Shown here piece after piece: positions 11,452 to 51,232 of a DNA stretch of 64,000 nucleotides. Below the pieces are notes generated by a model. That model saw only the letters and a program-made list of their open reading frames with translations. It was not told where the DNA came from and did not search any database. The translations under genes were made by a program, and so were the position numbers. Source of the stretch: the human T2T-CHM13v2.0 reference genome, Homo sapiens; assembly GCF_009914755.1 (NCBI RefSeq), contig NC_060940.1; one strand, given 5' to 3'. The first letter of the stretch is position 1. Each line of letters starts with the position of its first letter.

Positions 11452-12881
<1,430 letters not shown>

Positions 12882-29782: not shown

Positions 29783-29977
29783 TCATGCCAGGGAAGGCAG
29801 GTAAGCAGATGCTTCCCTTAATACCTAACAGTTTTTGAGTGTTCCCTACGTGCTAGGCATTTTCCTAAGTGCTTCTCGTATACATAGCTATCTCTTACAG
29901 GAAGGAACTGACTTATTTTACAGAGGAGGAGACTGATCCTACAGGCGTGAAGGAGCTTGTCTAAGATCCCACAGCCA

Positions 29978-30360
29978 TTTTTTATGGCTGCATAGTAAAA
30001 ATGATGAGTTCATGTCCTTTGTAGGGACATGGATGAAATTGGAAACCATCATTCTCAGTAAACTATCGCAAGAACAAAAAACCAAACACCGCATATTCTC
30101 ACTCATAGGTGGGAATTGAACAATGAGATCACATGGACACAGGAAGGGGAATATCACACTCTGGGGACTGTGGTGGGGTCGGGGGAGGGGGGAGGGATAG
30201 CATTGGGAGATATACCTAATGCTAGATGACACGTTAGTGGGTGCAGCGCACCAGCATGGCACATGTATACATATGTAACTAACCTGCACAATGTGCACAT
30301 GTACCCTAAAACTTAGAGTATAATAAAAAAAAAAAAATTAAAAAAAAAAAAAAAAAAAAA
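29978..30360 (+). mobile_element. L1HS pre-Ta, 5'-truncated with 19-bp 5' inversion, inserted in a MIR
   Basis: ACG at 30231-30233 and G at 30316; ORF2 end and stop at 30117-30119; long A tail; 15-bp TSD AAGATCCCACAGCCA (29963-29977 / 30361-30375). Confidence 0.93.
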
Positions 30361-30454
30361 AAGATCCCACAGCCAGCAAGAGATGGAGGCAGGACTTGAA
30401 CAAGGCACTTAAAGTCCAGCTGTACTTTATACTTGGATGAGACAAAGCAATTCA

Positions 30455-49851: not shown

Positions 49852-50172
49852 TTATTCTCTTTTCTTTTTTTTTCTTTCTTTCTTTTTTTTTTTTTTTTTT
49901 GAGATGAAGTCTTGCTCCATCGCCCAGGCTGGAGTGCAGTAGCACGATCTTGGCTCACTGCAACCTCCGCCTCCTGGGTTCAAGTGATTCTCCTAGCCTC
50001 CAGAGTAGCTAGGATTACAGGCATGTGCCACCATGCTCAGCTAATTTTTGTATTTTTGTATAGACGGGGTTTCACCATGTTGGCCAGGCTGGTCTTGAAC
50101 TCAGAACAGGTGATCTGCCTGCCTCCGCCTCCCAAAGTGCTGGGATTACAGGCATGAACCACTGCTCCCAGC
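49852..50172 (-). mobile_element. Alu
   Basis: antisense Alu. Confidence 0.94.
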
Positions 50173-50306
50173 CATACTCTCTTTTCCTCATGTTGAAGGT
50201 ATCACTGTCTATGCTGTGTTTCCTGGGCTTTGGGGAAGGGTGATGCAGGCAATGTGACATTGTTTTCCTATTGTTGTCAATACACCCTTTAAAGTTTCTG
50301 TGCTTC

Positions 50307-50621
50307 TTTTTTTTTTTAATATATATATTTTTATTATACTTTAAGTTCTAGGGTACACACAAGGATATGTATAACAGGATGCTATTGTAGCAATGTTTGT
50401 GGTAGGAAAATAATGAAAACAAATACCACTGATATGAAAATTAATGAATAAATTATAGTATAACTATCCCATTTCTCACTTGGTATTCATCACAACGATT
50501 TATTTAGATCTTTATTGAGTAACTTGGAATTTTATTTCCATGGAGTATTATTGAGTGAGAAAGATAAGAAGCAGAAAAGCAAGCCATTAAAGTGATAAAC
50601 CAAATAAACATTACAAAAAAA
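50307..50621 (+). mobile_element. L1-mediated insertion: inverted L1PA tail plus ~255-bp 3'-transduced sequence and poly(A)
   Basis: exact 16-bp TSD AAAGTTTCTGTGCTTC (50291-50306 / 50622-50637), TTT/AAAG endonuclease site. Confidence 0.85.
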
Positions 50622-50785
50622 AAAGTTTCTGTGCTTCACCCAGGGGCTATAATCTCTTACCTGAATTTCTTAGCTCTTGTAAAGGTATTTTTATGTGTTG
50701 GTGGTTGTTTAAGTGGATGTTTCTGTGAGGAGATGAATGTCAGAAACTCTTCTTCTGCTATCTTGCTGACAACACACAAAATTTT

Positions 50786-51232
50786 ACAAGTGGAGGACAG
50801 ATATTAATGACTTTCAGGGTTTAGTGACAGGGGTAGGGTGGTAGAGGGTAGGAGTGGGAGAGAGGTGGATGTCATTAGAAAAGAGCAAAACAAGTTATTT
50901 TGGTGGTGATGGAATTGTTTAATGCCTTGACTGTGATGCTGGATATGTGGAACCAAACGTAATAAAATTTTATAGAACTAAATACACCCCTCCCACCATG
51001 AGTACAAATGAAATGCGAAATATGAATAAGATGGCTTGATTATATCAATGTTGATATCCTTGTTGTGATATTACACTGCAGTCTTACAAAATGTACAACT
51101 ACCTTGTAATATAGTGGTATAATATAGGCTACAATATTACAATTGTAATATAGTTGGGTCTAGGGTAAAAAGTACATGGAATTCTATGTGTTACTTCTTA
51201 CAACTATATGTGAATCTACAATTATGTCAACA
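50786..51232 (+). mobile_element. L1MC/MD-like 3' UTR
   Basis: GGTGATGGAATTGTT...TGTGAATCTACAATTAT. Confidence 0.75.

What the first reader, a model, noticed from the sequence alone, without database searches (positions are those of the whole stretch)
50291..50637. Near-orphan L1 3'-transduction with the source L1 tail flipped by twin priming
Seen: an exact 16-bp TSD (AAAGTTTCTGTGCTTC) at a TTT/AAAG site encloses a T-run, then TTTTTATTATACTTTAAGTTCTAGGGTACA (50328-50357, reverse complement of an L1PA 3' terminus), then ~255 bp of unrelated sequence, then ATTAAA (50586) / AATAAA (50603) and a short A tail. Known: L1 read-through gives 3' transductions, and twin priming inverts 5' parts of inserts. 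CCCTAGAACTTAAAG is typical of mid-age L1PA (about PA4-PA7, recalled). Inference: second-strand priming occurred on the source L1's internal A tail, so only ~30 bp of L1 survives, inverted, and the insert has T and A tails at opposite ends. Repeat annotation would likely split it into unrelated scraps. The transduced part is a barcode for a source L1 elsewhere.
Basis: partly seen in the sequence, partly recalled or inferred. Interest (0 to 1): 0.8.

Follow-up and report, generated by a model that had tools for sequence, protein, structure and literature searches.

The report
L1-made retrocopy with inverted L1 tail
This is an old, neutral 315-base insertion made in one step by the human L1 jumping-gene machinery, in which a copy of a chromosome 1 transcript end is joined head to head with the last few dozen bases of an L1 element; it is a tidy example of known mechanisms.

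Summary
An exact 16-bp direct repeat (50291-50306 / 50622-50637) brackets a 315-bp insert. The insert is T11, the reverse complement of an L1 tail and 3' terminus (50307-50357), then a 257-264-nt unique segment ending in AATAAA plus an A-run. Three paralogous copies of the old repeat hosting the site are contiguous across it, with one copy of the duplicated motif, so this is a single insertion.

The predicted paralogue exists, and only one: chr1 117453497-117453752 (minus), 8 substitutions in 264 aligned bases (3.0%) plus one indel. It is not next to an L1PA 3' end. No matching L1 terminus lies within 50 kb upstream in the right orientation. It sits antisense in an intron of a Glyco_hydro_47 gene (MAN1A2 by recall). 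The TA-interrupted tail is not a barcode: 151 genomic matches at up to 3 mismatches.

Main rival (about 0.25): twin priming on two RNAs, a chr1 antisense transcript and an L1 mRNA tail. Either way it belongs to a known class and is of low to moderate interest. Primate orthologues could not be examined.

The parts
50291..50306 (+). Left copy of the 16-bp target site duplication AAAGTTTCTGTGCTTC. It is preceded by CCCTTT, giving an endonuclease-like site TTT/AAAG.
   Evidence: Paralogous empty sites (A1).
50307..50317 (-). T11, the complement of the terminal A-run of an L1 tail. This is where second-nick (top-strand) priming started.
   Evidence: Nine other L1 copies with the same tail have T-runs of 6-11 followed directly by flank.
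50318..50332 (-). Complement of A5-TATATATATT, the TA-interrupted part of the L1 tail.
   Evidence: (151 genomic matches to the 46-mer at up to 3 mismatches).
50333..50357 (-). Reverse complement of the last 25 nt of an L1PA body (TGTACCCTAGAACTTAAAGTATAAT). A at 50357 is shared with the chr1 sequence, a 1-nt junction overlap.
50358..50614 (+). Retrocopy of the 3' end of a chr1 transcript (source G000:C1:117453497-117453752, minus strand), 5'-truncated.
   Evidence: 96% over 1-257; the only other genomic match; 96.6% over 265; 8 substitutions in 264 aligned bases plus 1 indel.
50586..50591 (+). ATTAAA variant poly(A) signal, also present at the chr1 source.
50603..50608 (+). AATAAA poly(A) signal 6 nt before the A-run, also present at the chr1 source.
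50615..50621 (+). A7 tail. chr1 also encodes A7 here. Three further A's (50622-50624) belong to the TSD.
50622..50637 (+). Right copy of the 16-bp target site duplication.

Best explanation
This is a single L1-mediated insertion, a partnered 3' transduction with a twin-priming 5' inversion. An L1PA sat in the minus orientation on chr1, antisense in an intron of a class I alpha-mannosidase gene, a few to some tens of bases upstream of 117453752. It was transcribed past its own weak poly(A) signal and through about 260-280 nt of flank, and the RNA ended at the AATAAA site at 117453497. At chr16 the L1 endonuclease nicked the bottom strand at CTTT/AAAG, and that end primed on the RNA's 3' A-run and copied 257-264 nt. 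The top strand was cut 16 nt away. Its 3' end (…GCTTC) primed on the internal A-run of the source L1's tail and copied the tail plus 25 nt of L1. The two cDNA ends were joined at a 1-nt overlap, and fill-in produced the 16-bp TSD. The result has a T-tail at one end and an A-tail at the other. Shown: the single insertion, the TSD, the endonuclease-like site, the identity and orientation of both parts, the chr1 origin, and the poly(A) signal. Inferred: that both parts came from one RNA, and that a source L1 allele once existed on chr1 and is absent from this assembly. The insert is a neutral fossil with no indicated function.
For: The TSD is real and the insert is one event. The better endonuclease site is on the strand that primes the chr1-derived A-run, so the primary template ended with the chr1 segment. 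For an L1 read-through RNA this fits L1's cis preference (recalled knowledge). The chr1 segment ends 6 nt after AATAAA, both in the insert and at the source. The source lies antisense in an intron, between Glyco_hydro_47 exons at C1:117451630-752 and 117502554 on the plus strand. It is therefore not the 3' end of the host mRNA, and it needs its own promoter in that orientation, which an intronic antisense L1 would supply. The tail and terminus match a widespread L1PA lineage. The 3.0% insert-source divergence (95% CI 1.3-6.0%) is compatible with the 6.4% pooled pairwise mismatch of that lineage. Base rates from passages read: transductions were 35% of somatic events against 2% for processed pseudogenes, and 66% of twin-priming junctions carried an internal deletion (bioRxiv 10.1101/2024.08.27.596794). 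About 30% of partnered transductions carry a 5' inversion (PMC13009371). Source L1s absent from the reference are documented (PMC9311842).
Against: The key prediction failed in this assembly. The only paralogue (2 of 2 matches being the window and chr1) has no L1PA end beside it. No matching terminus was found within 50 kb upstream in the same orientation. There are only older L1 ends with different termini about 31 and 35 kb upstream, and a fragment lacking the last 17 nt about 38 kb upstream. No sibling insertion carries the chr1 segment or the 73 nt upstream of it. The lost-source assumption is untested. The top-strand primer ends in C, which an A-run does not pair with. Only 0-3 A's of the tail are untemplated, so true polyadenylation is not proven.
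Confidence: 0.6

Rival explanations
1. Twin priming on two different RNAs. The bottom-strand nick primed on the A-rich or polyadenylated 3' end of an L1-independent antisense transcript from the chr1 intron, mobilised in trans. The top-strand end primed on the poly(A) tail of an ordinary L1 mRNA present in the same particle. The two short cDNAs (about 260 nt and about 50 nt) were joined head to head. No source L1 on chr1 is needed.
For: No L1PA lies next to the chr1 source or within 50 kb upstream. The inverted piece looks exactly like a complete L1 3' end with a complete tail of its lineage: A5(TA)4TT plus A11, against A-runs of 6-11 in 9 of 9 other copies inspected. That tail is common (151 matches), so it is what an ordinary L1 mRNA of that lineage would carry. 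Twin priming on a second RNA has been proposed in print for chimeras whose non-L1 part is antisense to L1 (tRNA, 5S rRNA, antisense mRNA/L1; PMC13174262, passages read).
Against: It needs an unannotated antisense intronic transcript to be picked up in trans, although processed-pseudogene-type events are far rarer than transductions (2% against 35%). It also needs a second rare step, and it makes the non-L1 RNA the primary template, against cis preference. In the published chimeras L1 is the 3' (primary) part, so the reversed roles seen here are not described in the passages I read. The top-strand end …CTTC pairs poorly with poly(A).
Confidence: 0.25
2. One RNA, but from a distant or spliced source. 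An L1 far upstream on chr1 (more than 50 kb away, or one of the older or partial L1 ends 31-38 kb upstream) read through, and a long internal stretch was skipped by splicing or by a large twin-priming deletion.
For: Same-orientation L1 3' ends exist about 31, 35 and 38 kb upstream. Twin-priming junctions often carry internal deletions.
Against: Their termini differ from the window's piece (…GTACCTCACAACTTCAAGTATAAT…, …GTAGCCCAGAATTTAAAATAAAAG…, and …CCCTAGAAC directly followed by (AT)n without TTAAAGTATAATAAAAA). There is no convincing splice acceptor at the start of homology (my reading). Deletions of tens of kb are not the usual outcome.
Confidence: 0.05
3. Two separate insertions, a tiny inverted L1 and an unrelated retrocopy, that merely lie side by side. 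Alternatively, the direct repeat is a chance match.
For: None beyond the unusual layout.
Against: The 16-mer repeat is not expected by chance (0 of 100 shuffles). The L1 piece lies inside the TSD and has no TSD of its own (left …TCTGTGCTTC against right CACAAGGATA…). Three paralogous host-repeat copies show a single gap opposite the insert.
Confidence: 0.03

Closest known systems
L1 partnered 3' transduction with 5' inversion by twin priming (Ostertag and Kazazian 2001, recalled and seen only in reference lists; cancer and germline surveys)
   Same: It has a TSD, an endonuclease-like site, a unique segment ending at a downstream poly(A) signal, an inverted 5' part made of sequence that would lie upstream on the same RNA, and a junction with minimal overlap.
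   Different: The L1 content is only 25 nt plus tail, so the insert is nearly an orphan and carries a T-tail opposite its A-tail. The inferred internal priming site is the source L1's own A-run. No L1 is present at the source locus in this assembly.
Orphan L1 3' transduction
   Same: Most of the insert is non-L1 sequence copied from one other locus and ending at a poly(A) signal.
   Different: A true orphan has no L1 sequence. Here a short L1 terminus survives, inverted.
Antisense-oriented chimeric LINE-1 insertions attributed to twin priming on a second RNA (PMC13174262, passages read)
   Same: There are two parts in opposite orientation inside one TSD, with a reverse transcript starting from each side of the break.
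   Different: In those chimeras, as described in the passages read, L1 is the primary 3' part and the other RNA is the inverted 5' part. Here the L1 piece is the inverted 5' part and begins with its own tail.
5'-truncated processed pseudogene or retrocopy
   Same: It is a copy of the last roughly 260 nt of a transcript with AATAAA, an A-run and a TSD.
   Different: The source is antisense-intronic, not an mRNA 3' end, and an inverted L1 end is attached.

Membership tests
L1 endonuclease-dependent TPRT insertion | Target site duplication of about 7-20 bp flanking the whole insert | tested here: met
   Exact 16-bp repeat; 0 of 100 shuffles reach 2 copies. One copy only in 3 of 3 paralogous host-repeat copies aligned.
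L1 endonuclease-dependent TPRT insertion | Nick site resembling TTTT/AA on the primed strand | tested here: met
   The bottom strand reads CTTT/AAAG at the 5' edge of the TSD. The consensus itself is recalled.
L1 endonuclease-dependent TPRT insertion | 3' A-run abutting the TSD | tested here: met
   A10 at 50615-50624. However, 7 of these A's are also encoded at the source.
L1 3' transduction | The unique segment maps to one other locus and ends at a poly(A) signal there | tested here: met
   Single paralogue on C1. AATAAA lies 6 nt before the end of homology at both loci.
L1 3' transduction | The source locus lies immediately downstream of an L1 in the same orientation | tested here: not met
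   No L1PA end is adjacent and none matches within 50 kb upstream. This holds for this one assembly only; other haplotypes and species were not testable.
L1 3' transduction | L1 3' end with its tail on the same insert, 5' of the transduced segment on the RNA | tested here: met
   The L1 terminus plus tail is present and inverted, at 50307-50357.
Twin priming | 5' part inverted relative to the 3' part inside one TSD, each part starting at a break end | tested here: met
   The T-run abuts the left TSD copy and the A-run abuts the right one, with a head-to-head junction at 50357/50358.
Twin priming | Inverted and direct parts are neighbouring stretches of one RNA | not testable with these tools
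   This needs the source L1 allele on chr1, which is absent from this assembly. No primate or pangenome data are held.
Processed pseudogene | The source is a spliced mRNA of a gene | tested here: not met
   The source is intronic and antisense to the Glyco_hydro_47 gene. The copy is colinear with genomic DNA.

The most novel reading that the evidence does not exclude
The insert records twin priming on two RNAs with the roles reversed from published chimeras. A non-L1 antisense intronic transcript was the primary template at the endonuclease nick, and the poly(A) tail of the L1 particle's own mRNA was captured by the second break end. That would leave a roughly 50-nt L1 footprint with a T-tail. 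If so, tiny inverted L1 ends with T-runs at the 5' edge of retrocopies would mark which L1 lineage made a given retrocopy.
Probability: 0.25. Interest if true: 0.5.

Novelty: new member of a known kind. Interest (0 to 1): 0.25.

Why it matters
As an individual locus it matters little. It is a neutral insertion in a gene-free stretch, probably 10-30 million years old; that age is my rough conversion of the 3.0% divergence and is not a tool result. It is useful as a worked case in three ways. First, repeat annotation would not reveal that the two pieces are one event. Second, it shows that the A/TA tail of an L1 is lineage-wide and cannot serve as a source barcode. Third, a transduced segment can point to a locus that no longer carries an L1. 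If the two-RNA reading were right, it would add a reversed-role example to the recently proposed twin-priming route to antisense L1 chimeras.

Tried and rejected
2. I tried to name the 257-nt segment and the chr1 sequence upstream of it. Pfam on 4 of 4 stop-free pieces gave nothing relevant (two hits at E = 0.16 to unrelated zinc-finger and C1 models). tblastn with stop-free pieces of L1 copies gave no hit over the segment. Relaxed blastn was noisy, because most of the 9 L1 probes are short elements followed by unrelated flank. The ancient-L1-ORF2 reading therefore stays a recollection.
3. A multiple alignment of the last 600 nt of the 9 L1 probes was useless for the same reason, with 26-65% apparent differences. 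I replaced it with pairwise local alignments anchored at the L1 end.
4. I first noted a 4-nt TACA junction microhomology. Exact alignment shows only 1 nt, the A at 50357.
5. I asked whether the chr1 copy could itself be a retrocopy (a sibling). I saw no TSD around it (reading), and no third copy exists, so I treat chr1 as the source. The paralogue search did not show repeat continuity across the homology boundary: family hits stop at the A15 run 73 nt upstream.
6. The Ostertag and Kazazian paper is not held.
7. Two paper searches failed on term syntax, and I reworded them.

Full report
OBSERVATION. The layout is: AAAGTTTCTGTGCTTC (50291-50306); T11 (50307-50317); AATATATATATTTTT (50318-50332); ATTATACTTTAAGTTCTAGGGTACA (50333-50357); a unique stretch from 50358; ATTAAA at 50586; AATAAA at 50603; A10 at 50615-50624; and the same 16-mer again at 50622-50637. 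The repeat finder reports this as the only direct-repeat family in the 701-nt region. The 16-mer has just these 2 matches in the window at up to 1 mismatch, and 0 of 100 shuffles reached 2 matches. The L1-end motif occurs once more in the window, with 2 mismatches, at 30300-30323 on the minus strand.

IT IS ONE INSERTION. The right flank (50622-50820) belongs to an old interspersed repeat, with 40 scored matches at 74-81% identity. The left flank (50176-50306) has 3 weaker paralogues. In three loci (C12, C6, C4) the left-flank and right-flank matches abut. In the four-way alignment A1 these copies run straight across the site, with one copy of the motif (…CTTTTCTTATTTCTGTGCT…ACCCAG…) and a single gap opposite the insert. 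This is a paralogous stand-in for the empty site, and it shows that the 16-mer is native target sequence that was duplicated. The L1 piece lies inside the TSD and has no TSD of its own. That rules out two adjacent independent insertions.

THE TWO PARTS. The stretch 50307-50357 read in reverse complement gives TGTACCCTAGAACTTAAAGTATAAT-A5-TATATATATT-A11. Nine other genomic L1 3' ends align to it at 96-100% over 46-54 nt. In all nine the L1 sequence continues (…GGGTACATGTG…), whereas the window's copy breaks off at 50357.

The unique stretch has one and only one other copy in the assembly: G000:C1:117453497-117453752, minus strand, 96% over 1-257. Exact alignment from 50357 to 50621 gives 8 substitutions in 264 aligned bases (3.0%; Poisson 95% interval 1.3-6.0%) and one 1-nt indel. 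Homology starts at the A of 50357, which the L1 end also shares, so the junction overlap is 1 nt.

At the 3' end both loci read AAATAAACATTAC followed by A's, A7 on chr1 and A10 in the window. The last three of the window's A's are part of the TSD. So 0-3 A's are untemplated. Cleavage and polyadenylation at this site is likely but not proven.

THE SOURCE LOCUS. It is not there. The chr1 sequence upstream reads …TTTTCCAAGAAATAAAATTCCTACTA|CACAAG…. An A15 run lies 73 nt further up, and before that a multi-copy old repeat (21 matches at 72-85%).

I fetched 50 kb upstream and 10 kb downstream in the orientation of the segment. The 30-nt L1 end has no match in the first 20 kb upstream or in the 10 kb downstream. 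Nine 1.48-kb L1 3' probes then found only three same-orientation L1 ends across the whole 50 kb, at about 31, 35 and 38 kb upstream. Their termini differ from the window's piece. Two are older types, and the third stops at …CCCTAGAAC followed by (AT)n, lacking the last 17 nt.

No other genomic copy carries the segment or the 73 nt upstream of it, so there are no sibling insertions.

A Pfam Glyco_hydro_47 scan of the assembly places plus-strand exons at C1:117423801, 117429637, 117451630-752, 117502554, 117506194, 117508809, 117512288 and 117532259. The source therefore lies in an intron of that gene, antisense to it. The gene is MAN1A2 by my recollection of the map, which no call checked. It follows that the source RNA was not the host gene's mRNA or pre-mRNA.

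THE TAIL IS NOT A BARCODE. The 46-mer of tail plus terminus (50312-50357) has 151 matches in the assembly at up to 3 mismatches (76 forward, 75 reverse). Five are exact, including the window itself, and the reversed control pattern has none. In the 9 loci I inspected, the T-run after the TA block is 6-11 long and is followed directly by flank. So A5(TA)4TT plus a short A-run is the ordinary complete tail of a whole L1PA lineage. Anchored pairwise alignments of these L1 ends give a pooled mismatch of 6.4% over the 15 pairs of at least 150 nt, out of 36 pairs. This is an upper bound on twice their age and is compatible with the 3.0% (1.3-6.0%) between insert and source. I could not name the subfamily because no repeat library is held.

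MECHANISM. The better endonuclease site (bottom strand CTTT/AAAG) is the one that primes the chr1-derived A-run, so that RNA end was the primary template. The top-strand end (…GCTTC), 16 nt away, is followed at once by T11 and the copy of the L1 tail and terminus, which is a reverse transcript started from the second break end. Two reverse transcripts meeting head to head with minimal overlap is the published picture of twin priming. I read that description in bioRxiv 10.1101/2024.08.27.596794 and in PMC13174262. The original 2001 paper is not held.

What remains open is whether both transcripts copied one RNA or two.

An L1 read-through transcript ran L1 – tail – about 270 nt of chr1 flank – poly(A), and the second primer landed on the internal tail. 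This explains three things: why an antisense intronic stretch was transcribed at all, why the primary template obeyed cis preference, and why an L1 end is attached. From the passages I read, such events are common. Transductions were 35% of 6,000-odd somatic events against 2% for processed pseudogenes, and 66% of twin-priming junctions carried an internal deletion. About 30% of partnered transductions carry a 5' inversion. The model needs a source L1 allele on chr1 that is absent from this assembly. Active L1s are often polymorphic, and non-reference sources are documented (PMC9311842), so this is not far-fetched, but it is untested. Endonuclease-type sites exist in the right place (for example GAAAT|AAAATTCC, 13 nt upstream of the start of homology). 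Such sites are frequent in AT-rich DNA, however, so they carry no weight.

Two RNAs. An L1-independent antisense transcript was the primary template, and the poly(A) tail of an ordinary L1 mRNA was the second. This needs no lost element and fits the complete-looking tail. The idea of twin priming on a second RNA is in print for antisense-oriented chimeras. It stacks two rare steps, though, and it reverses the roles described there.

I put the one-RNA reading at about 0.6, the two-RNA reading at about 0.25, a distant or spliced source at about 0.05, and unrelated adjacent insertions or chance at about 0.03. The remainder is unassigned.

COMPARISON AND NOVELTY. The thing works like, and most probably is, a partnered L1 3' transduction with a 5' inversion. 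One defining feature of that class, an L1 beside the source, was tested and not met in this assembly, so membership is provisional. The layout is a neat extreme: almost an orphan, with a T-tail opposite an A-tail. But every step is a known one. I searched the held literature twice for related descriptions. I did not search for this locus specifically, and I make no claim that it is undescribed. Supplements of the papers were not opened. Catalogues in them, notably those of PMC13174262, could list this or similar insertions.

LIMITS. No primate or pangenome sequence, no repeat library and no expression data were available. That leaves several things open: the orthologous empty site, the age in species terms, the subfamily name, the existence of the chr1 transcript, and the one-RNA versus two-RNA question.

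Noticed in passing
L002:1478-1500 (minus strand; G000:C1, about 12 nt downstream of the A7 that ends the source segment): The 8-mer GTTTCTGT of the chr16 TSD recurs on chr1 just downstream of the source's A-run (GCTCTGCTTTTGTTTCTGTCTGCTG). From the rate of TSD 8-mers in 124 kb, about 0.02 such hits are expected in 40 nt. This is probably chance in T/C-rich sequence. I could not build a priming scheme that uses it and still gives the observed product.
   Followed up: partly
window 50100-50175: This is the end of an Alu-like element in minus orientation (…GCCTCCCAAAGTGCTGGGATTACAGGCATGAACCACTGC…), just left of the old repeat that hosts the insertion. The identification is by recall only.
   Followed up: no
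window 50176-50306 and 50622-50800: The target site lies inside an old interspersed repeat family, with at least 40 genomic matches at 74-81% to the right flank. The family was not named because no repeat library is held.
   Followed up: partly
window 30300-30323 (minus strand): This is another L1 3' terminus, with TTTTAGGG instead of TTCTAGGG and TCTAAG instead of TTTAAG. By recall the TTTTAGGG form belongs to younger L1PA/L1HS elements. It lies inside masked stretch 29973-30371.
   Followed up: no
G000:C19:31320789-31321901 (minus strand): The best Glyco_hydro_47 match in the genome is one uninterrupted stretch covering profile positions 31-427, with 13 in-frame stops. It looks like an intronless, decayed retrocopy of a class I mannosidase.
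   Followed up: no
L002:1831-1845 (G000:C1, 73 nt upstream of the source segment, same orientation): An A15 run separates a multi-copy old repeat piece (21 matches that stop at the run) from the low-copy stretch containing the source segment. By recall the sequences on both sides look like the same part of an ancient L1 ORF2 repeated, which suggests an old rearrangement or nested insertion.
   Followed up: partly
L013 (G000:C2:82050912-82050957 and flank): This is another very short L1 3' end, about 55 nt, with the same TA-interrupted tail. The L1 sequence stops after …GTGCAGG. It is a candidate for the genome-wide count proposed under next steps.
   Followed up: no
chr1 upstream of the source: G000:C1 about 117491518-117491612 (position 12141-12235 of the 60-kb stretch): A roughly 95-nt L1PA-like 3' fragment ends at …CATGTACCCTAGAAC and is followed directly by (AT)6 instead of the usual last 17 nt and tail.
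   Followed up: no
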